Origin: Minisyncoccota bacterium
Lineage (GTDB): Bacteria > Patescibacteriota > Minisyncoccia > Phycocordibacterales > UBA9973
Assembly: GCA_041657445.1 (NCBI GenBank)
Contig: JBBABV010000001.1
Location: 36,783 to 100,782 of the forward strand
DNA length: 64,000 bases
Direction of reading: 5' to 3'
Below are positions 19-61,106 of this stretch, piece after piece; the first letter of the stretch is position 1; each line of letters opens with the position of its first letter. The notes beneath the pieces were generated by a model. The model made no database searches. It worked only from the letters and a program-made list of their open reading frames with translations, and had not been told where the DNA came from. The position numbers were made by a program, and so were the translations under genes.

Positions 19-1251
19 TCAAATAATTTTATATATATTACCCCTTACTATTGTCATTACTACACTTCCACCAAATGTCATTCCTGTAAATGGAGACCAT
101 TTACACTTTGTCTTCAGTTTTTCTTCCTTGATTGTAATTGACCTTTCTAGATCAAACACAGTAAGTGAACCAATATAGCCTTCCTCTACCTTTCCATATT
201 TATCCTTAGTAAAAGGATTTATAAAACTCGCAGGGTTTTCACTACATATCTTAGCTACATCACTCAGAGAGAAATTATGTTCTTTAACAAGCCAAGAGAC
301 AAATGGTGCATAAGTATCAAGATGAGGCATTCCTGACATTCCTTTTTCTTTTTCTTCCTTGGTGTGAGGAGCATGGTCTGTAGCTAGGTAGTCAATAATT
401 CCATTCTTAAGACAACTAATTAAGAAGAGACGATTTTCTATATCTTCTCTGATAGGAGGATTTACTTGCAACCATTTTTCATTTAGAGGGGAAAGCATGC
501 TCATGTCAAAATATAAATGATGGGGTGTTACTTCTACAGTTACATTAACTCCATCATTTTTTGCTTGAATTATTTTTTCTATCCCTTCTTTTGTGGAACA
601 ATGACAAACCTTACCTTTAAGATTGTATTTTTTGATGAGATATAATGCAAAATCTATTGCTTTTGTTTCTGCTTCTATTGGTCTTTTATTCGCATGACTA
701 GTATTAGATTTACTTTTCTCAAGAATTTCAGGATCTTCACAATGAAAACTAACAAATTTTCCTTGATATTTTTTAATGCTTTCTTCTAGTTCTAGAGAAG
801 AATTAAAAAACAGATCACCAACAGAAGGTCCCATAAATGCTTTATAAGGAACTTCAAATGATAATGGTTTAGTACTTGGTCCTATCCCTGCATAAAGGAT
901 TACATCAATAGGGGATTTGCTTTTTAGATTTTCTTTATCTCTATAACTAGTATCATCTACAGGTGCAACAGGATTGTTTGGCATATCAGCTATAGCTACT
1001 ACTCCACCATTTATTCCTGCTTCTCCTGCTGTCCTAAAATCCTCTTTATAATCTTGACTATGATTAGTGCATTCTCTGCAGTGAGTGTGAATATCTATAA
1101 AGCCAGAAAATATATATTCATCATTAAAAATGATATCAGCACATCCTGTTGGTGTAGAAATTTTAGTGATAAGTCCATTTGAATTATCAATTTCTATCCT
1201 ACTTCTCTTAATTTCTTTACTATTAACTATTTTTCCTTCTATTGAAAGCAT
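19..1251 (-). CDS. pyrC: Dihydroorotase-like cyclic amidohydrolase (PyrC family)
   Basis: 410 aa. Metal-binding signatures of the amidohydrolase fold: DIHTHCRE near the N-terminus and ATDHAPH near the C-terminus. Assignment to DHOase rather than allantoinase or dihydropyrimidinase is by size and motifs only. Confidence 0.65.
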   Translation of the reverse strand: MLSIEGKIVNSKEIKRSRIEIDNSNGLITKISTPTGCADIIFNDEYIFSGFIDIHTHCRECTNHSQDYKEDFRTAGEAGINGGVVAIADMPNNPVAPVDDTSYRDKENLKSKSPIDVILYAGIGPSTKPLSFEVPYKAFMGPSVGDLFFNSSLELEESIKKYQGKFVSFHCEDPEILEKSKSNTSHANKRPIEAETKAIDFALYLIKKYNLKGKVCHCSTKEGIEKIIQAKNDGVNVTVEVTPHHLYFDMSMLSPLNEKWLQVNPPIREDIENRLFLISCLKNGIIDYLATDHAPHTKEEKEKGMSGMPHLDTYAPFVSWLVKEHNFSLSDVAKICSENPASFINPFTKDKYGKVEEGYIGSLTVFDLERSITIKEEKLKTKCKWSPFTGMTFGGSVVMTIVRGNIYKII

Positions 1252-1271: not shown

Positions 1272-1300
1272 AAACAAAAAAATAACCCCTCTGTGGGGTT
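1272..1300 (-). terminator. Rho-independent terminator downstream of the putative restriction endonuclease gene
   Basis: Minus-strand hairpin AACCCC-acaga-GGGGTT (1284-1300) followed by the T-run ATTTTTTTG (1272-1283 as read on the minus strand). Confidence 0.55.
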
Positions 1301-1433
1301 TTGAATTAAAATATAAAAAAAAGAAATTATGTCGGCTCTCTTATTAGTTTTTCTTCTTTTATACATTGATATGAATCATAACATTTTTTATTTTTTAGGC
1401 AAGGGTATCGTAAGAATTATTTAGTATTTTCAT

Positions 1434-2594
1434 TTAGTCTAATCTTTTATTAAAAATAATAAAATTATCAATATCTTTTTTCTTTATTTGTATTTTCATT
1501 TTTCTTTCTCTATTATTACTGTTTCTTCCTTGAGACATATCTGAAATGTGCTTAAGATTATACTTATTTATCTCTAAAATTTTAACATTGGATAATTGAA
1601 TAGAATACTTCATTCTTGTTGCATAACTTAGTGGATTTTCCTTATTTAGCAATTTATTCCAATATCCTGTAACGGCATTTTCATAATCCTTATCCATTTT
1701 CGTTTTGTGATAATACACGATGTACCAAAATTTTTTGTGTAAATTTATTGCTTGTAAAAAATTAATTTTATCATTACCTAGTATTGAATTACTTTTTTCT
1801 GAATGCATTTTGAGATCTCCTAGATATCCATTTGAAAATTCTAAATCAAAATCCAAATTACCCTTTTTCTTTTTGGAAACAAATCTGCAGATTTTCTTTG
1901 AATTTTCATTCTTATTTAAAAAATTTTCAAATTTAAATTCAAGATAAAAACCAGGCCACTCTGACTGAGCCTTGTTTCTATAATTTGCATCAAACATTTC
2001 CGTGTAACATTCTTTTCCTTCCCATTTGACAGGAAGAGAGGAAGAAAAATTGTCAAAAAGTTTTATTTCATTTTGAAGTTCATTTTTATTTTTTGAAAGC
2101 AAATTTTTTACATATTTTTCTAGTTTATCTTCTCTTACAACTGCTATTTTATTTTCCCTAGAATCCATTTTCTCAAATATCCCATATTCCATAGCCTTTT
2201 GCAGATCAATCGTGTGTATATGAGCAGATGAATTGTTTAGTTTATTAGTTTTGTATTTTTTTGTATCAAAAAACACAAATATATTATTGGTTTTGTAACT
2301 ATATATACCCATAAGTAAAGCACCATCTATAAGCGGTTCTTTCCACTTCGTTGGGATTTGTATTCTTTTTTTAAAAACTAAATGAGGATGACCTAAATAA
2401 GTTATTTGTTTTATACATAAAGTAAAATTTTTGCTGGCTAGTTTACAAGAATACGGATTCTTGTTTTTAATGATTTCAAAATGCCTCGTCAATATAACTC
2501 TAATTTCTTTCTGTTTTAATTTTTTATCAAAATCCACCACGATCCTACCATCTAAATTTATTTGCTCTACTTTTTTCATAGTCTTATTTTTCAA
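1434..2594 (-). CDS. Putative Type II restriction endonuclease (partner of the adjacent C5-MTase); no recognisable family
   Basis: 386-aa ORF overlapping the methyltransferase gene by 11 nt on the same strand, which suggests translational coupling. Lys-rich with no methyltransferase or other known motifs. A possible PD-(D/E)XK-like stretch is LDFDLEF...GDLK. The assignment rests mainly on context. Confidence 0.45.
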   Translation of the reverse strand: MKNKTMKKVEQINLDGRIVVDFDKKLKQKEIRVILTRHFEIIKNKNPYSCKLASKNFTLCIKQITYLGHPHLVFKKRIQIPTKWKEPLIDGALLMGIYSYKTNNIFVFFDTKKYKTNKLNNSSAHIHTIDLQKAMEYGIFEKMDSRENKIAVVREDKLEKYVKNLLSKNKNELQNEIKLFDNFSSSLPVKWEGKECYTEMFDANYRNKAQSEWPGFYLEFKFENFLNKNENSKKICRFVSKKKKGNLDFDLEFSNGYLGDLKMHSEKSNSILGNDKINFLQAINLHKKFWYIVYYHKTKMDKDYENAVTGYWNKLLNKENPLSYATRMKYSIQLSNVKILEINKYNLKHISDMSQGRNSNNRERKMKIQIKKKDIDNFIIFNKRLD

Positions 2595-3837
2595 GCATCA
2601 TTTTCAGTAATTCTTTAACTACTTTGATATTGACCGCATTACCTAATTGCTTCAATGCAGTATTTTTGTCTTCGTGCAATATAAAATTTTTTCTAAAAGA
2701 CTGAAGTTTCTTCAATTCTTCGGGGTGGGCTTTTCTTAATAGTTTTCCGATAATTTGGTTGTGATTCATTGCAACTAGTGTAGAAAAATAATTTGGCCTC
2801 TTAACTCTAACTCCAGAAGGTCTGAATTGAATGAGTGAATCATATATATCATGTATATCATTTCCTGCTTGCCATTCAAATTTTCTATGTGTTTCTTTTA
2901 CCCAAGTAAGATTTTTGTATTTTTTGAGCCATCTATCTACAAATTTTTTATTTCTTTTATAGAGTTCAATGTTTTTGATAATAAAATCTTGTTTCCATTT
3001 TGGAAATTTCTTTATCTTTGTGACATCTTCCTTAAAATAATCACTCCACACTGGGAAACCTATTATTTTTAAATCAATGTTTAAATAAAACTCATTCCAC
3101 ATTTTGATTACTTTTTTTTCATATTCTGATATTTCAGATGTCTTGTTATTAAATTTTTCACTTATTATTGAATAGGCATTTAAATTACTATTACATTTTT
3201 TTGTAACTAAAAAATTAAATTTCTCTTCATAGTTGCCGTATTTTTTTAACACACCAGGAATATATATTCTTTTTCGTAAAACAGGTATTCCAAACTGATT
3301 TGGACTCAAGATGATAGGTTTTTTCGGAATGGAATAACCGAGTTTTTCCAATGTTTCAGTAATTATCTTATATGTATTTCCTTTGTCATGAGAGACAAGA
3401 TTTGAGACATTTTCTAGAAGAAAGTATTTTGGTTTGTGATGCTTTAATATTCTCACTATATCAAAAAACAAAGTTCCTCTCATATCTTTAAATCCTTTTC
3501 TTTGTCCTCCTTTTGAAAATGGTTGACAAGGAAACCCTGCAAACAATATATCATGAGAAGGTATATCCTTTTCTCTCACTTTTGTTATATCTCCAGCAGG
3601 AATTATATTGAAGTTATTTTTATAAACCTTTTGACATTCTTCGTCCCATTCAGAAGCAAATACACATTTTCCGCCAAAGTCTGCTATTGCCTCATGGAAT
3701 CCTCCTATACCAGCAAAAAGATCTATGAATTCATATTTCTCTGTTTTATTGTTCTCCTTTTTTTGAACAGGAAAATTTAATCCTAGTTTTAGGGTGCCAA
3801 TATCAGAAAAATCTTGTGTATTATTATTCATTTTCAT
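2584..3837 (-). CDS. DNA (cytosine-5)-methyltransferase (Type II R-M modification subunit)
   Basis: 417 aa with the canonical m5C-MTase motifs: motif I FAGIGGF, motif IV GFPCQPFS (catalytic Cys), motif VI ENV, and a C-terminal motif X QLGNAVN. A variable target-recognition region lies between them. Confidence 0.9.
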   Translation of the reverse strand: MKMNNNTQDFSDIGTLKLGLNFPVQKKENNKTEKYEFIDLFAGIGGFHEAIADFGGKCVFASEWDEECQKVYKNNFNIIPAGDITKVREKDIPSHDILFAGFPCQPFSKGGQRKGFKDMRGTLFFDIVRILKHHKPKYFLLENVSNLVSHDKGNTYKIITETLEKLGYSIPKKPIILSPNQFGIPVLRKRIYIPGVLKKYGNYEEKFNFLVTKKCNSNLNAYSIISEKFNNKTSEISEYEKKVIKMWNEFYLNIDLKIIGFPVWSDYFKEDVTKIKKFPKWKQDFIIKNIELYKRNKKFVDRWLKKYKNLTWVKETHRKFEWQAGNDIHDIYDSLIQFRPSGVRVKRPNYFSTLVAMNHNQIIGKLLRKAHPEELKKLQSFRKNFILHEDKNTALKQLGNAVNIKVVKELLKMMLEK

Positions 3838-3981
3838 AATAAGTCCTTTATTTCTTGCTGATAATTATACTTTACATTACTTTTTCTCGCAATTTTTTAT
3901 AATCATATTATATTACATTTGATAAAGTTTTGGTTGCATAGATTACGGAAGGTGATATCATATATATTAAGAATATAATAT

Positions 3982-4278
3982 ATGGAAAACGAAAAAATAA
4001 GAATGAATCGTGAAATTCCAATCAGAGATTCTTCTTCAAGGTATATTAATTATGAAGGGTTAGAGCCCTGGAGAAGTGCATTAAAGAATTCTTCAATAGG
4101 GAAGGAAATAGGGAAGTTTGATAGTTTGATGGTAGAAAAAACAGTAGGTTCATCATTTAAAGGATATAAATTAATTTACAAAAACCAATTAATCAATGGT
4201 GAAAATGTAAATGTGTATATTAAGGAAGACAACAAAGAAAAATGGAAGGCGGTTTTTCTTCATTTAATAAATAAATAA
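3982..4278 (+). CDS. Hypothetical small protein (98 aa)
   Basis: ORF only. No motif recognised and no Shine-Dalgarno sequence. It is separated by a single stop codon, in the same frame, from the next gene. Confidence 0.3.
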   Translation: MENEKIRMNREIPIRDSSSRYINYEGLEPWRSALKNSSIGKEIGKFDSLMVEKTVGSSFKGYKLIYKNQLINGENVNVYIKEDNKEKWKAVFLHLINK

Positions 4279-4281
4279 TAT

Positions 4282-4677
4282 ATGGAAACAGGATTTTGGT
4301 ACTTAAATTTAATAAAACCTGAATGGGCACCACCTGCTTGGCTTTTTGGACCTGTATGGACAGTCTTATATATTATCATTTTCATTTCATTTGGATATGT
4401 TTTTTACAAAGTATGGAAGAAGGAATTACCTACAAAAATTGCTATTCCTTTTACTTTAAATCTTTTATTTAATTTCGCTTTTAGTCCTATCCAATTTGGC
4501 TTACAAAACAATGTGCTAGCTGGAATAGATATAATCTTTATTTTAATTACCTTGATTTGGATAATTGTAGTAATTTATAAAAAAATAAAATGGGTAGCAC
4601 TTGCCAATGTGCCTTATCTTATTTGGGTTTCCTTTGCTACTATTTTACAACTTACTATTACATATCTTAACTGGTAA
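4282..4677 (+). CDS. TspO/MBR (tryptophan-rich sensory protein) family membrane protein, N-terminally short
   Basis: The TspO loop-1 signature LIKPEWAPPAWLFGPVWTVLY and the C-terminal VPYLIWVSFAT...LN match the family consensus. At 131 aa it lacks the first TM helix of canonical 150-160-aa TspO proteins. Confidence 0.65.
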   Translation: METGFWYLNLIKPEWAPPAWLFGPVWTVLYIIIFISFGYVFYKVWKKELPTKIAIPFTLNLLFNFAFSPIQFGLQNNVLAGIDIIFILITLIWIIVVIYKKIKWVALANVPYLIWVSFATILQLTITYLNW

Positions 4678-4953: not shown

Positions 4954-7518
4954 TTATTGTAAAAATTTATTAATTGCAGTTTTGTCCCTTTTTAGCCATG
5001 CGATATTGTTTTCCATTCTTTCCATAATCTGTTCCAGAGACCTTTCTGTTCCAGGAGCATTGTTTGATTTGAAAAATTGTTGAAATGAGGTAAGATGTTT
5101 TTTTTCTGCACTTCCTGAAATTGCTTTTAGTATTTTTCCAAGTGCGTGTATTCCTTCACCATATCTTGACAAAAGAAGTTTCCAATTTTTCTTTACAAAT
5201 GACCACCATACATCTCTACCATATGGATTCATTCCAACACTAAATAGAATTCCTATAGTGTCTTGATAACGAACATCTGAAGATATAGAAAATTCACAAA
5301 CTTTCCTTAATATCTCTTTCTGCCTAAAATCTCCAAGTGCGTTTCCTATACGATTTTTTTCTTCATGCATGTTTTCATTTTTATACATTTCTATCATTCT
5401 TTTGTATTCCTTCTCTCCTCCATTTGAAGCAATTGTTGTATATATTGCTCCACGAATGTCAGGATGTATTTGCTCACCTTTATTTATCTCTTCCCATAAA
5501 ACTTTTGCTTTTTTAACTACCTCTTTATCTCTTGATCTACCTAGACGATTAATGAGCATAGAACGAAGAAGGGTGTCAGTATTCATTTCATTATCTATCA
5601 CATTCCATCCTAAACGATTTAAACAAGGGGAAAATAATTCTGATATGTATAAATCAAAATCCATTTTAAATGGAGTTTTTGCAATGATTTGCTCAATTTG
5701 AGCAAGCCCTCTACCAATTTCAACCCATACTACATAACTATCTTCATTTTTATATACCTCTAGGAAATCTAACGTAGTTTTTATAGAAATTTTTCCAGCT
5801 TCGGCGAGAGCAAAAAGATCTCTGATTATCCCCAACCTATCATAAGTGGGAAGAATTTTCTTTTTTATAGGGTCCTTTAATTTTTCAAGAAGTTCTTCTG
5901 AGTATAGAGTTCTAAAAAAACCATTCTCTCCTAGATTAATTTTTAACCAGTTGTTTTTATTATCATCCAAATCAATTTCTGTTGTCTTTTTTGAAAAATG
6001 GATTTTTTCTTTTTTTGAATTATTTCCAAGTGAGATAGGGATATACCATATTGTTTTATCATTTCCTTTTTTCTTTGATTCTAGGCTTGCAAAGAATCTT
6101 TCTTGATTTAAAACAAGTTTACCTTTATTACAATTTACTGATACTAAGGGGTATCCACTTTTACTTGTCCAATTCTTCATTATTTTTTTAACTGGCATTT
6201 TAGAAACCTTTTCAAATGCTTCCCATAAATGAATAGTTTCTGTGTTTTTGTAACTATGTTTCTTCAAATAATACTTCAATCCTTTTCTAAAATTATCTTC
6301 TCCGAGATATTCTGCAAGCATTGCAATAACTGATGCACCTTTTGAATAAGAAACAGCATCAAATATCTCACCGATTTCATCAGGACTATTAACTTTTACT
6401 TCAATTGGATGAGTATTGAGAAGGGAATCAAGACGAATAGCCACACCGTGTGTATCTGTGATAAATCTTTCCCAGATATTCCATTTAGGAAATATATTAT
6501 GAATAGCAATATAAGGAATATATGAAGCAAAACCTTCATTAAGCCAAAGATGAGTCCACCATTCCATAGTTACTAAATTACCAAACCACTGATGAGCAAT
6601 TTCATGAGCGATAACCTCTGCAATCATTTCTTTTGTTCCAAGCGAGGTATTTTTTTCATCAACAAGAAGCCCTATCTCTCTAAAAGTAATTGCACCCCAA
6701 TTTTCCATTGCTAAAGATGAGAAATCTGGTATTGCAATCATATCAAGAGTAGGAAGTGGATATGGTATATCAAAATACTTATCATAAAATTCTAATACTT
6801 TTATCGTAGTAGAAAGTGCAAATTTTGCTTGATGTAATTTTCCAGGAGTAGTAAATATTCTAACCAAAACATTATTTTTTGTTTTTCCTTCTACATATTC
6901 AAAATTACCTACAATGAATGCTAGAAGGTATGTGGACATCTTCGGAGTAGGAGAGAAATGGACTATTTCATATCCAGCCTCATGCTCTTTTACGGATATT
7001 GGAAGCGTATTTGAGATAGCAGAATGACCTTTAGGCACAACAAGAGAAACATTAAATATTGATTTTTGTGCTGGCTCATCAAAACAAGGAAAAGCCCTTC
7101 TAGCATCTGTAGCCTCAAATTGAGTGGTTGCTATATGTTGTTCTTTGCCTTCTAATTGATATTTACTTCTGTAAAAACCTCTCATTTTGTCATTTAGGAT
7201 TCCTTGAAAGACAATTGTCAATTTGGTTTTTCCTTTCCTTATTTCTTTTTTAAAATGAAATGTTGCAGTTTCGGTTTTTTCATCATAAGTGATCTTGTCT
7301 GTAAATACTTTTTCTTTATAGGAAATTACATTTACAGTTTCAATATCAATATCTTTTGAATGTAGTGTAATTTTTTTTATATCCTTAAGAAGATTAATCA
7401 ATATAGTCTCCTTACCTACAAATGTAAAATTCTGCATATCTGGCTTGAGTTCAATATAGTATTTGATTGGAACAATGTTTTTTGATAATCGTATTCTTTT
7501 GTTTTTAATTTTCTGCAT
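4954..7518 (-). CDS. pepN: Aminopeptidase N (M1 family zinc metallopeptidase)
   Basis: GAMEN-type exopeptidase motif (AMENWG) and the zinc motif HEIAHQWFGNLVT...WLNEGFASY (HEXXH-18-E). I trimmed the start to the ATG at 7518 (MQKIKNK...). The ORF-track extension to 7872 overlaps the divergent scpA start and carries no homology. Confidence 0.9.
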   Translation of the reverse strand: MQKIKNKRIRLSKNIVPIKYYIELKPDMQNFTFVGKETILINLLKDIKKITLHSKDIDIETVNVISYKEKVFTDKITYDEKTETATFHFKKEIRKGKTKLTIVFQGILNDKMRGFYRSKYQLEGKEQHIATTQFEATDARRAFPCFDEPAQKSIFNVSLVVPKGHSAISNTLPISVKEHEAGYEIVHFSPTPKMSTYLLAFIVGNFEYVEGKTKNNVLVRIFTTPGKLHQAKFALSTTIKVLEFYDKYFDIPYPLPTLDMIAIPDFSSLAMENWGAITFREIGLLVDEKNTSLGTKEMIAEVIAHEIAHQWFGNLVTMEWWTHLWLNEGFASYIPYIAIHNIFPKWNIWERFITDTHGVAIRLDSLLNTHPIEVKVNSPDEIGEIFDAVSYSKGASVIAMLAEYLGEDNFRKGLKYYLKKHSYKNTETIHLWEAFEKVSKMPVKKIMKNWTSKSGYPLVSVNCNKGKLVLNQERFFASLESKKKGNDKTIWYIPISLGNNSKKEKIHFSKKTTEIDLDDNKNNWLKINLGENGFFRTLYSEELLEKLKDPIKKKILPTYDRLGIIRDLFALAEAGKISIKTTLDFLEVYKNEDSYVVWVEIGRGLAQIEQIIAKTPFKMDFDLYISELFSPCLNRLGWNVIDNEMNTDTLLRSMLINRLGRSRDKEVVKKAKVLWEEINKGEQIHPDIRGAIYTTIASNGGEKEYKRMIEMYKNENMHEEKNRIGNALGDFRQKEILRKVCEFSISSDVRYQDTIGILFSVGMNPYGRDVWWSFVKKNWKLLLSRYGEGIHALGKILKAISGSAEKKHLTSFQQFFKSNNAPGTERSLEQIMERMENNIAWLKRDKTAINKFLQ

Positions 7519-7567
7519 TTTGAAAGTATATATTTTTTTGGTCAAAAATGCTATTATTATATTTATA

Positions 7568-8305
7568 ATGGAATCAGTAATCAATGAAAATAAATACAAG
7601 GTAAGGACCTCAAGTTTTGAAGGTCCTTTTAGTGTTCTTCTCTCTTTAGTGGAAGAGAAAAAGTTACATATAAATGATCTTTCTTTAGCACAAGTAACGG
7701 AAGACTTTATTAGACACATAAGCACTGTAGATAAAGCAGATAATACTGAAGTTTCTAGTTTTATGATAGTTGCATCTACCCTCATACTAATTAAATCTAA
7801 ATCCTTACTTCCAAATCTTCCACTTTCAGAAGATGAAGAGAAGGATATAAACAATCTTACAAATAGACTCAAGCTTTATGAAATTTATACAAATCTAGGA
7901 GAAGACATCAGAAAAAAATTTGGAAAAAGTATAATATTTTCTCCACTTGAAAAAAGGCAAGAATCTGTAGTCTTTCTTCCTGATTCACAAATAACAAAAG
8001 AAAGTATGATGATTCTTATAGACGGAGCACTTGGAAGAATGCCTAAAAAAGAATTTTTGCCAAAAATTGAAGTGAAGAAAGTGATAAGTATTGAGGAAAT
8101 GATATATAATCTTACAGAGAGAATAAAAAAGTCAGTAACAATTAGTTTTAAGGAATTAAATGGGAAAATTGTCACAAAAGAAGAAAAAATTAATGCTATC
8201 GTTTCTTTTCTTGCTATGCTTGAATTAGTTAGAGAAGGGATATTGTCAGTATTACAAGAAAATAACTTTCAAGATATAATAATTCAAAAAACAAACAACT
8301 TATGA
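7568..8305 (+). CDS. scpA: Segregation and condensation protein A (kleisin ScpA)
   Basis: N-terminal FEGPFSVLLSLVEEKKLHINDLSLAQVTEDF matches the ScpA consensus and the gene is followed by scpB. I moved the start to the internal ATG at 7568. Confidence 0.8.
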   Translation: MESVINENKYKVRTSSFEGPFSVLLSLVEEKKLHINDLSLAQVTEDFIRHISTVDKADNTEVSSFMIVASTLILIKSKSLLPNLPLSEDEEKDINNLTNRLKLYEIYTNLGEDIRKKFGKSIIFSPLEKRQESVVFLPDSQITKESMMILIDGALGRMPKKEFLPKIEVKKVISIEEMIYNLTERIKKSVTISFKELNGKIVTKEEKINAIVSFLAMLELVREGILSVLQENNFQDIIIQKTNNL

Positions 8306-59591: not shown

Positions 59592-61106
59592 ATGGAAAAA
59601 ACGACATCAAAACAAATAGGTGCATATATTAAAAAATTAAGAGAAAGAAAAGATATTACTCAAGGAAAATTAGCTAAACTCCTTGCTACCTCTCAAAGTG
59701 CCGTTGCTAGGATGGAGAAAGGTGAACAAAACTTCACTACCGACATTCTAAAGAAGATTGGTAAGATTCTCGGAGAGAATATAATATCCGTAAACACCTC
59801 TCTTGATTTTGAGATAAATGGAGGAAAAAAGTTAAGTGGAGAGATTACTACAGGCTACTCAAAAAATGGCTCTGTTGGTCTTCTCTGTGCTTCCCTTCTT
59901 AATAAGGGAATCACTACTCTCCACGGTATAGCACGAATTGAAGAGGTATATAGAGTAATAGAGATATTAGAGAGTATCGGTGCAAATGTAGAATGGATTG
60001 AGAAGAATTCAGTAAGAATCACCCCACCAAAAACTTTTAATATGCGAAATATCAATAGAGAATCCGCTATCAAGACTCGCTCTATCATAATGTTCATTGG
60101 TCCACTAATTCATTTTCTAAACAATTTTTACCTTCCTCATGCTGAAGGATGTAAATTAGGAAAGAGAACCATTAGTGCTCACAAATATGCACTAGAAGAG
60201 CTAGGGGTAAATATTAAGACTACAAACAATAGATACATTGTGTCAACTTCTGAGTTAAGACCAGGAAAAATAGTAATGTATGAATCAGGAGACACTGCTT
60301 GTGAAAATGCTTTAATGACTTCAGCTAGAATTGAAGGGAAAACAATCATTGAATGTGCAAGTGGAAACTACATGGTGCAAGAAATGTGCTTTTTCCTTGA
60401 AAAACTTGGGGTAAGGATTGAAGGGATCGGCACAGGCACTCTTATAATCCACGGAGTGAAAGACATAAATCTTAATGTAGAGTATTCAAACAGTGAAGAC
60501 CCTATTGAATCAATGATGTTCATCTCTACTGCTATAGCTACTGATTCCAAGTTGACTATTAAAAAATGCCCAATTGATTTTCTAACTCTTGAACTATATA
60601 AACTTAAAACAATGGGATTAAAGTATAAAGTGCTTGATAGATATTTTTCAAATAATGGTAAAACTAAACTCATTGATATAGAAATAAGACCAAGTAGATT
60701 AATTGCACCTGAAGATAAAATTCATGCGAATCCATATCCAGGCATAAATATAGACAATCTTCCATTCTTTGGCCCTATTGCGATTAAAGCAAAAGGCACT
60801 ACTTTAATTCATGATTGGTTCTATGAAAACAGAGCTATATACTTCACTGAATTAAATCGTCTTGGTGCAAATGTTACACTTCTTGATCCACACAGAGTAT
60901 ATATAAATGGAGGAACAAAACTTAAAGGAGCACAGATAGTCTGCCCTCCTGCTTTAAGACCTTCAATGGTAATACTAATCTGTATGCTTGCCTCTGAAGG
61001 TACATCTGTATTACGAAATGTATATATGATAAATAGAGGGTATGAAGAAATAGCAGAGAGATTGAATAGCATAGGAACAGATATAAAAGTGATGAACGGT
61101 ATTTAA
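59592..61106 (+). CDS. murA: XRE-family HTH domain fused to UDP-N-acetylglucosamine 1-carboxyvinyltransferase (MurA)
   Basis: Residues 1-65 form a Cro/C1-type HTH (IGAYIKKLRERKDITQGKLAKLLATSQSAVARMEKGEQNFT). From about residue 75 the protein is a full-length MurA/EPT fold (INGGKKLSGEI...KNGSV, active-site loop AEGCKLGKR with the Cys). There is no stop or start codon between the two parts. Confidence 0.75.
   Translation: MEKTTSKQIGAYIKKLRERKDITQGKLAKLLATSQSAVARMEKGEQNFTTDILKKIGKILGENIISVNTSLDFEINGGKKLSGEITTGYSKNGSVGLLCASLLNKGITTLHGIARIEEVYRVIEILESIGANVEWIEKNSVRITPPKTFNMRNINRESAIKTRSIIMFIGPLIHFLNNFYLPHAEGCKLGKRTISAHKYALEELGVNIKTTNNRYIVSTSELRPGKIVMYESGDTACENALMTSARIEGKTIIECASGNYMVQEMCFFLEKLGVRIEGIGTGTLIIHGVKDINLNVEYSNSEDPIESMMFISTAIATDSKLTIKKCPIDFLTLELYKLKTMGLKYKVLDRYFSNNGKTKLIDIEIRPSRLIAPEDKIHANPYPGINIDNLPFFGPIAIKAKGTTLIHDWFYENRAIYFTELNRLGANVTLLDPHRVYINGGTKLKGAQIVCPPALRPSMVILICMLASEGTSVLRNVYMINRGYEEIAERLNSIGTDIKVMNGI

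What the first reader, a model, noticed from the sequence alone, without database searches (positions are those of the whole stretch)
1272..3837. Compact Type II R-M module: m5C methyltransferase plus an unclassifiable 386-aa partner
The methyltransferase is unambiguous from its motifs I, IV, VI and X. The downstream 386-aa ORF overlaps it by 11 nt and ends at a clean terminator hairpin, but it matches no restriction endonuclease family I can recognise. At most it has a weak D...GDLK pattern. The pair sits between pyrC and a TspO-like gene. No integrase or transposase flanks it, so it looks like a defence insertion in a reduced genome. The partner may be a new REase family or specificity.
Basis: partly seen in the sequence, partly recalled or inferred. 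Interest (0 to 1): 0.55.

Follow-up and report, generated by a model that had tools for sequence, protein, structure and literature searches.

The report
AluI-type restriction-modification gene pair
The "unclassifiable" partner gene is a clear relative of the well-known restriction enzyme AluI, sitting next to a relative of the AluI methylase, so this is an ordinary defence gene pair of a known family in a small-genome (Patescibacteria) bacterium.

Summary
The two genes are real and form one operon on the minus strand. In order: promoter-like site 3892-3864, m5C methyltransferase 3837-2584, nuclease 2579-1434, terminator hairpin 1300-1284 plus a T-run.

The partner is not unclassifiable.
- It hits Pfam MTaX1 (E 6e-22) and, end to end, a PADLOC Type II REase model (E 6e-59).
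- It aligns over its whole length with the protein UniProt names AluI from Cellulosimicrobium cellulans (33% identity, E 5e-71).
- The methylase aligns likewise with M.AluI (31%, E 3e-72), including the variable region.
- AlphaFold models (pLDDT 93) give restriction-endonuclease folds for both halves. The N-terminal MTaX1 half lacks the acidic triad.

The pair recurs next to each other in about 75 of 83 loci from many phyla and is under purifying selection (dN/dS 0.17 and 0.07). AGCT is depleted in this window (88 observed, 162 expected) but not in three relatives that lack the module.

The 11-nt overlap is an ORF-calling artefact. The conserved ATG leaves a 4-nt gap.

Verdict: a new member of a known kind, of low interest. 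AGCT specificity is likely but unproven.

The parts
3864..3892 (-). Promoter-like site TTGCGA-17 nt-TATAAT, about 27 nt upstream of the methylase ATG
   Evidence: Consensus scan, 10 of 12 matches. The sequence was read directly. Function is inferred only: such matches are no more frequent here than in shuffled sequence.
2584..3837 (-). m5C DNA methyltransferase, 417 aa, homologue of M.AluI
   Evidence: PF00145 E 2e-77. TIGR00675 E 4e-79. PADLOC MTase_II E 9e-94. The catalytic half resembles M.HhaI, E 1e-57. 31% identity to M.AluI P0366, E 3e-72, over aa 34-412. Motif positions verified.
2812..3240 (-). Methylase variable / target-recognition region (about aa 200-342), ending in QFRPSGVRVKRPNYFSTLVA
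   Evidence: Alignable across the whole family, including M.AluI (FRPSGIRAKRPTYLPALVA). Identity to the window in this region is 64% down to 18% across the 19 partner methylases aligned, and about 21-24% in most actinobacterial ones.
1434..2579 (-). Restriction endonuclease, 381 aa from the conserved ATG (stop codon included), homologue of R.AluI
   Evidence: PADLOC REase_II PDLC03409 E 5.7e-59, aa 9-384 on profile positions 6-398 of 408. 33% identity to 'AluI' D9MYV5_CELCE, E 5e-71, aa 4-380 against 6-399. Start codon from alignment A1. dN/dS 0.17 against L001.
2580..2594 (-). Upstream TTG extension of the ORF; not part of the gene, and the source of the apparent 11-nt overlap
   Evidence: No homologue has these five residues. 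Sequence read.
2079..2579 (-). N-terminal MTaX1 domain (aa 1-167): restriction-endonuclease-like fold without an acidic catalytic triad
1437..2027 (-). C-terminal PD-(D/E)XK catalytic domain (aa 185-381)
1809..1940 (-). Catalytic motif codons: E214 (1938-1940), D243 (1851-1853), D245 (1845-1847), G254-D255-L256-K257 (1809-1820)
   Evidence: Invariant in 16 sequences spanning all clades and R.AluI and in 25 closer sequences. Coordinates verified by translation.
1274..1300 (-). Intrinsic-terminator-like hairpin AACCCC-ACAGA-GGGGTT followed by ATTTTTTT
   Evidence: dG -9.3 kcal/mol; z-score only -1.3 against shuffles.
19..1251 (-). Flanking dihydroorotase-like amidohydrolase; conserved anchor of the variable slot
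   Evidence: PF01979. Homologues are named dihydroorotase in Patescibacteria. Synteny.
3982..4677 (+). Flanking orf98 (3982-4278, no family) and TspO (4282-4677). Both belong to the same variable slot and are not part of the R-M system.
   Evidence: Present with the R-M pair in L001. Absent from L084.

Best explanation
This is a two-gene Type II restriction-modification operon of the AluI family in a Patescibacteria chromosome.

The upstream gene encodes a C5-cytosine methyltransferase that protects host DNA. Its most likely action is methylation of AGCT to AGm5CT.

The downstream gene starts 4 nt after the methylase stop. It encodes a 381-aa Mg-dependent PD-(D/E)XK endonuclease (E214, D243/D245, D255-x-K257). 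This enzyme cleaves the same site when unmethylated, most likely as a blunt cut AG^CT, as AluI does.

The nuclease has two restriction-endonuclease-fold domains. The C-terminal one is catalytic. The N-terminal MTaX1 domain has lost the acidic metal ligands and is inferred to bind DNA, either as a second recognition module or as a clamp.

Shown here: gene structure, homology to R.AluI and M.AluI, fold, conserved catalytic residues, conserved gene linkage, purifying selection and selective AGCT depletion.

Inferred: actual cleavage, the exact site, the cut position and the role of the N-terminal domain.
For: Homology
- Window nuclease against the protein UniProt calls AluI (D9MYV5_CELCE, 408 aa): 33% identity, E 5e-71, end to end.
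- Window methylase against 'Type II methyltransferase M.AluI': 31%, E 3e-72, including the variable region.
- The PADLOC Type II REase model, whose length (408) equals that of R.AluI, matches at E 5.7e-59.

Catalytic core
- E-D-DxK is invariant across all clades.

Linkage
- A full-length homologous m5C methylase lies next to the nuclease in about 75 of 83 loci.
- All but one of the eight loci without one (L057) are loci where the contig ends beside the nuclease gene.
- Gene order differs between clades, and methylase identity tracks nuclease identity.

Function retained
- dN/dS is 0.17 (R) and 0.07 (M), against 0.19 for the neighbouring pyrC. dS values are similar.

Specificity
- The recognition-loop segment FRPSG(V/I)R(V/A)KRP.Y..LVA is conserved with M.AluI.
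- AGCT is 88 observed against 162 expected in the window, evenly across four quarters.
- Three related Patescibacteria loci lacking the module give 140 against 141 pooled.
- AGCT is among the three most depleted palindromic tetramers in 34 of 62 host loci, and O/E is below 0.5 in 26 of 62, the highest count for any word.
- There is no AGCT inside 1272-3990.
Against: - Nothing was tested biochemically.
- At 31-33% identity to the AluI proteins, specificity can differ.
- AGCT is only the fifth most depleted tetramer in the window, after GTAC, TCGA, GATC and ACGT.
- AGCT is not depleted in actinobacterial host loci (O/E 0.93).
- CTAG, GATC and GGCC are depleted almost as often as AGCT among host loci.
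- The control set is only three short loci totalling 31 kb.
- The 'AluI' label is a database name, which I could not trace to a paper.
Confidence: 0.8

Rival explanations
1. It belongs to the AluI family but has a different recognition sequence. The site could be another C-containing word such as GTAC, GATC or ACGT, or a longer site containing AGCT, because specificity has drifted at about 32% identity.
For: GTAC, TCGA, GATC and ACGT are more depleted than AGCT in the window. The methylase variable region is only about 21-24% identical to most actinobacterial members, as low as 18%. AGCT is not depleted in actinobacterial hosts.
Against: GTAC, TCGA and ACGT depletion is also present in relative L084, which lacks the module. 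AGCT depletion is not. None of those words recurs among family hosts as AGCT does. The segment just before motif IX is nearly identical to that of M.AluI.
Confidence: 0.15
2. The nuclease gene is a decaying or inactive remnant, and the methylase works as a solitary (orphan) enzyme.
For: Orphan m5C methylases are common (established knowledge). One family locus, L003/L015, shows a disrupted partner gene, so decay does occur in this family.
Against: The ORF is intact and full length. All family-invariant residues, including the catalytic E-D-DxK, are present. dN/dS is 0.17, equal to the housekeeping neighbour. AGCT avoidance implies ongoing restriction pressure.
Confidence: 0.03
3. The MTaX1-nuclease is not a classical restriction enzyme. 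It could be a methylase-associated nuclease of another kind, such as a modification-sensing or mismatch-repair (Vsr-like) nickase that follows m5C methylases.
Against: The homologue is named AluI, a classical Type IIP enzyme blocked by AGm5CT methylation (PMC12707154). A complete metal-binding E-D-DxK motif is present. A nuclease that attacked methylated DNA would be self-toxic in an operon with a co-evolving methylase. Host AGCT avoidance fits restriction.
Confidence: 0.02

Closest known systems
AluI restriction-modification system of Cellulosimicrobium cellulans (formerly Arthrobacter luteus): R.AluI (D9MYV5_CELCE, 408 aa) and M.AluI (521/525 aa); AG^CT, AGm5CT
   Same: - Both proteins are homologous over their full length (33%, E 5e-71; 31%, E 3e-72).
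- The two-domain nuclease architecture is the same, and the catalytic E-D-DxK is invariant.
- The genes are adjacent.
- The methylase variable region has the same layout.
   Different: - Identity is only about a third.
- The methylase is 104-108 aa shorter. It lacks two large insertions in the variable region.
- The host is a Patescibacteria genome at 31% GC rather than a high-GC actinobacterium.
- Specificity has not been measured here.
Pfam PF20296 MTaX1 (methylase-associated X1) domain proteins
   Same: The N-terminal 56-162 aa (386-aa numbering) match at 78.7 bits against a cutoff of 25. All listed homologues but one truncated protein (P0108) carry the domain.
   Different: The literature describes MTaX1 only as a methylase-linked domain, possibly discriminating modified DNA. 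Here it is fused to a catalytic PD-(D/E)XK domain and is itself predicted to have a restriction-endonuclease-like fold.
PvuII, EcoRV, HincII, SwaI, NlaIV, ThaI and DpnI: the blunt-cutting branch of PD-(D/E)XK Type II enzymes
   Different: There is no detectable sequence similarity. Those enzymes are single-domain proteins of 157-250 aa.
Sau3AI (GATC; m5C methylase partner): a nuclease built of two restriction-endonuclease-like domains, one catalytic and one effector
   Different: Domain order is reversed: in Sau3AI the catalytic domain is N-terminal (established knowledge). There is no sequence homology. Two-site (Type IIE) behaviour has not been tested for the AluI family.

Membership tests
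AluI-family Type II R-M system | Nuclease homologous to R.AluI over its full length | tested here: met
   BLASTP 33% identity, E 5e-71, aa 4-380 of 381 against 6-399 of 408. PADLOC REase_II model of 408 positions, E 5.7e-59.
AluI-family Type II R-M system | Adjacent m5C methyltransferase homologous to M.AluI, including the target-recognition region | tested here: met
   31% identity, E 3e-72, aa 34-412. The variable region is alignable and the FRPSG.R.KRP.Y..LVA segment is conserved. The gap between the genes is 4 nt.
AluI-family Type II R-M system | Recognition of AGCT and blunt cleavage AG^CT | not testable with these tools
   Indirect only. AGCT is 88/162 in the window against 140/141 in three relatives without the module. 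AGCT is the most often depleted tetramer among 62 host loci.
AluI-family Type II R-M system | Methylation of the cytosine of AGCT at C5 | not testable with these tools
   All m5C motifs, including the catalytic Cys of GFPCQPFS, are present. No methylome data are available.
PD-(D/E)XK nuclease superfamily | Alpha-beta-beta-beta-alpha-beta core carrying E ... D ... (D/E)xK metal-binding residues | tested here: met
Pfam PF20296 MTaX1 | Score above the curated gathering threshold | tested here: met
   78.7 bits against 25, profile positions 2-111 of 111.
Type II R-M (as opposed to Types I, III, IV) | Separate R and M genes; no ATPase/helicase, specificity subunit or GTPase; nuclease not modification-dependent | tested here: inconclusive
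   The gene content fits: only an m5C methylase and a 381-aa two-domain nuclease, with no NTPase domains. Dependence on unmodified DNA is inferred from the AluI homology, not measured.
Type IIE (two-site, effector-domain) enzymes such as Sau3AI, NaeI and EcoRII | A non-catalytic DNA-binding domain that must bind a second site to activate cleavage | not testable with these tools
   A second, apparently inactive REase-fold domain exists. Its role is unknown.
C-protein-controlled R-M systems | A small HTH controller gene in the operon | tested here: not met
   There is no ORF between the promoter-like site and M or between M and R. The divergent 98-aa ORF has no HTH or any other Pfam match at E up to 1.

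The most novel reading that the evidence does not exclude
AluI-type enzymes are intramolecular pseudo-dimers. On this reading the MTaX1 domain is a degenerate copy of the PD-(D/E)XK fold: the family-conserved G-x-P-H segment (GHPH in this protein) lies where the catalytic domain has GDLK, though that alignment is not significant. It would serve either as the second half-site reader of a monomeric enzyme or as a Sau3AI-like effector or methylation sensor. If so, the long-used commercial enzyme AluI works by an unrecognised mechanism. It would also give the stand-alone MTaX1 proteins seen in Dnd/Pbe-type systems a concrete fold and role.
Probability: 0.3. Interest if true: 0.35.

Novelty: new member of a known kind. 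Interest (0 to 1): 0.15.

Why it matters
It mostly matters as a correction. The gene flagged as a possible new restriction enzyme family belongs to the family of AluI, one of the oldest commercial enzymes. The family is widespread: Patescibacteria, Bacteroidota, Clostridia, Actinomycetota and a Nanoarchaeia MAG.

There are three modest points of value.

1. It adds a minimal, AT-rich AluI-type pair, with a methylase about 100 aa shorter than M.AluI. This shows which parts of M.AluI's large variable region are dispensable.
2. No member of the R.AluI family matches any PDB sequence. The confident models here suggest two restriction-endonuclease-fold domains, with MTaX1 as the inactive one.
3. It gives a small worked example of a defence module occupying a variable slot between conserved genes in a reduced genome, and leaving a site-avoidance footprint that relatives without the module lack.

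Tried and rejected
- PDB sequence searches with the single protein and with a 25-sequence profile found nothing.
- tblastn against plasmids found nothing.
- The homologue search returned only 'hypothetical protein' names.
- I spent one large protein search on the Xylanimicrobium partner methylase, hoping to see M.AluI by name. None of the 120 listed hits was so named. The name appeared only when I listed the members of the 90% clusters.
- Tetramer avoidance across host loci was ambiguous on its own. AGCT, CTAG, GATC and GGCC are all often depleted.
- I considered ACGT, TCGA and GTAC as the target because they are the most depleted words in the window. I rejected them because relative L084, which lacks the module, shows the same depletion, and they do not recur among family hosts.
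- Base composition does not mark the module as recently acquired. The nuclease GC is 0.258 (z -2.0), but GC3 is normal.
- Profile-profile comparison of the N- and C-terminal halves was not significant (probability 0.2%, E 0.32). An internal duplication is therefore not shown.
- Literature: MTaX1 is mentioned in one held paper only. Its cited source (PMC7544218) is not held. The PADLOC papers do not say which REBASE sequences seed the REase model. No paper describing the R.AluI gene was found.
- I considered a Vsr-like repair nickase, a modification-dependent nuclease and a decayed nuclease gene. All three were ranked low (see rival explanations).
Full report
**What is in the sequence**

On the minus strand there is a 417-aa ORF at 2584-3837 and, directly downstream, an ORF listed as 386 aa from a TTG at 2594. 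The first is a C5-cytosine DNA methyltransferase:
- Pfam PF00145, E 2e-77;
- TIGR00675, E 4e-79;
- closest solved structure M.HhaI, E 1e-57, but only over the catalytic half, aa 35-193.

All 24 aligned homologues of the second protein begin at the ATG six codons further in. The gene is therefore 2579-1434 and encodes 381 aa. It starts 4 nt after the methylase stop codon. The 11-nt overlap is an artefact of ORF extension. Two other loci show the same 4-nt spacing.

A promoter-like TTGCGA-17-TATAAT lies 27 nt upstream of the methylase. A hairpin AACCCC-ACAGA-GGGGTT plus a T7 run (dG -9.3 kcal/mol) lies 134 nt downstream of the nuclease stop. Together these describe a two-gene operon.

**The partner protein is classifiable**

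It matches Pfam MTaX1 (PF20296) at 78.7 bits against a cutoff of 25. It also matches a PADLOC 'Type II restriction enzyme' model almost end to end, E 5.7e-59, profile positions 6-398 of 408. The protein database holds at least 446 homologues. All are labelled hypothetical, and all listed ones but one truncated protein carry MTaX1.

The set forms a textbook PD-(D/E)XK motif.

**Structure**

Sequence searches of the PDB gave nothing, whether with the single protein or with a profile.

The Type II enzyme matches score higher with the full-length model than with the N-terminal domain alone. I therefore assign them to the C-terminal domain. This is an inference, because aligned ranges were not reported. 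A profile-profile comparison of the two halves was not significant.

**Identification as the AluI family**

The following steps led to the identification.
- A scan of one genome per species found relatives in 129 genomes, among them many Micrococcales.
- The neighbouring methylase in Xylanimicrobium (L060) is about 521 aa with a very large variable region.
- A homologue search with that methylase returned no informative names.
- Listing the members of its 90% clusters showed that the cluster 85% identical to it contains 'Type II methyltransferase M.AluI', Cellulosimicrobium cellulans (P0366, 521 aa).
- Under consecutive accession numbers, the same listing shows a 408-aa protein that UniProt names 'AluI' (D9MYV5_CELCE, P0367).

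The window nuclease aligns with P0367 at 33% identity, E 5e-71, over residues 4-380 against 6-399. The window methylase aligns with M.AluI at 31% identity, E 3e-72, over residues 34-412. That alignment runs through the variable region, where M.AluI carries two large insertions. The PADLOC model has 408 positions, the same length as R.AluI.

**Evidence that it is a working restriction-modification pair**

In 83 fetched loci, a full-length homologue of this methylase lies beside the nuclease gene in about 75. In all but one of the eight exceptions (L057) the contig ends beside the nuclease gene. Gene order differs by clade:
- M then R in Patescibacteria and Bacteroidota;
- R then M in Clostridia;
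- convergent or divergent in many Actinomycetota.

Methylase identity tracks nuclease identity across these loci.

Against a 91%-identical copy from another sample (L001), dN/dS is 0.17 for the nuclease and 0.07 for the methylase. The neighbouring dihydroorotase gene gives 0.19. The dS values are similar, 0.29, 0.27 and 0.20. Both genes are therefore constrained and have been inherited together with their flanks.

**Specificity**

I cannot measure the recognition site. Three lines of evidence point to AGCT.
1. The methylase segment before motif IX is nearly the same as in M.AluI: QFRPSGVRVKRPNYFSTLVA against HFRPSGIRAKRPTYLPALVA.
2. AGCT is depleted in the window, 88 observed against 162 expected from a maximal-order Markov model. 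The ratio is 0.46-0.67 in each quarter. Three related Patescibacteria loci that lack the module give 73/84, 38/35 and 29/22.
3. Among 62 host loci, AGCT is in the bottom three palindromic tetramers in 34, and has O/E below 0.5 in 26. Both counts are the highest for any word.

There are also caveats.
- GTAC, TCGA, GATC and ACGT are more depleted than AGCT in the window. GTAC, TCGA and ACGT are also depleted in relative L084, so they reflect other pressures on the lineage.
- Actinobacterial hosts show no AGCT depletion.
- The control set is small.

I put AGCT at about 0.7-0.75.

**Context**

The window also encodes a penicillin-binding protein, an AcrB-family transporter, PurL, IMP dehydrogenase and topoisomerase I.

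Relative L084 has ScpA-PepN-[86-aa ORF + PcfJ-domain protein]-pyrC. The window and L001 have ScpA-PepN-[TspO-orf98-M-R]-pyrC. It is not a recent insertion. The slot content is shared at about 91% identity, and third-position GC is normal even though overall GC is low (0.258, z -2.0). The nearest neighbours on either side are not integrases or transposases: Pfam gave amidohydrolase, TspO and nothing for orf98, and homology gave PepN and ScpA.

**Mechanism proposed**

The methylase marks host AGCT sites at C5. The nuclease, translated from the same transcript, cuts unmarked sites with its C-terminal PD-(D/E)XK centre. A blunt cut is expected, both from the AluI homology and from the structural neighbours, most of which are blunt or 3'-overhang cutters. 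The N-terminal MTaX1 domain is most likely a DNA-binding module. [quoted passage not shown] Whether the enzyme acts as a homodimer, as a monomer with an internal pseudo-dimer, or as a two-site enzyme like Sau3AI is open.

**Verdict**

The R-M interpretation is right. The 'unclassifiable, possibly new family or specificity' part is not. This is a new member of a known kind and of low interest. The one mildly novel by-product is the predicted double restriction-endonuclease fold of AluI-type enzymes.

Noticed in passing
window 1-64000: The five most under-represented of all tetramers are all palindromes: GTAC (24 observed / 143 expected), TCGA (7/74), GATC (91/182), ACGT (2/40) and AGCT (88/162). 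GTAC, TCGA and ACGT are also depleted in relative L084. This suggests long exposure of the lineage to several 4-bp restriction systems. I did not look for the genes responsible.
   Followed up: partly
window 4954-7872 (-) and 7463-8305 (+): The listed 972-aa M1 aminopeptidase ORF is over-extended from a TTG and overlaps the ScpA ORF. The homologue in L084 is 846 aa, and the alignment begins near residue 6 of an 855-aa version that starts about 7521. The ScpA ORF likewise probably starts near 7589.
   Followed up: partly
window 3982-4278 (+): A 98-aa ORF with no Pfam match lies 4 nt upstream of TspO and divergent from the methylase. It is 91% conserved and in the same place in L001, and absent from L084. 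Function unknown. It is not an HTH controller protein by Pfam.
   Followed up: partly
L003 4721-6004 (= L015, Flavobacteriaceae MAG chromosome OZ244911.1): The partner methylase frame is broken by two in-frame stops, and the motif I region is garbled, while the nuclease gene is intact at 380 aa. This is either assembly indel errors or a system in decay. An intact nuclease without its methylase would be unexpected.
   Followed up: partly
L002 2852-13050: In this 775-kb contig the same R-M pair lies among RhuM, a reverse transcriptase followed by a SEC-C protein, KilA-N and RhuM-Fic genes, which looks like a defence or mobile island.
   Followed up: no
protein cluster of P0122: The 90%-identity cluster that holds M.AluI also lists the unrelated 408-aa R.AluI and a 1220-aa protein labelled Metschnikowia pulcherrima (KAJ8142289.1). 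The latter probably reflects bacterial contamination or a fused gene call in a yeast assembly.
   Followed up: no
window 59592-61106 (+): A 504-aa protein combines an N-terminal HTH_3 domain (aa 13-62) with a full EPSP-synthase-family domain (aa 76-491), an unusual fusion.
   Followed up: no
L004-L083: Gene order of the AluI-type pair is clade-specific: M then R with a gap of a few nt in Patescibacteria and Bacteroidota, R then M with a 30-150-nt gap in Clostridia, and often convergent or divergent in Actinomycetota, where the methylases are about 460-620 aa.
   Followed up: partly
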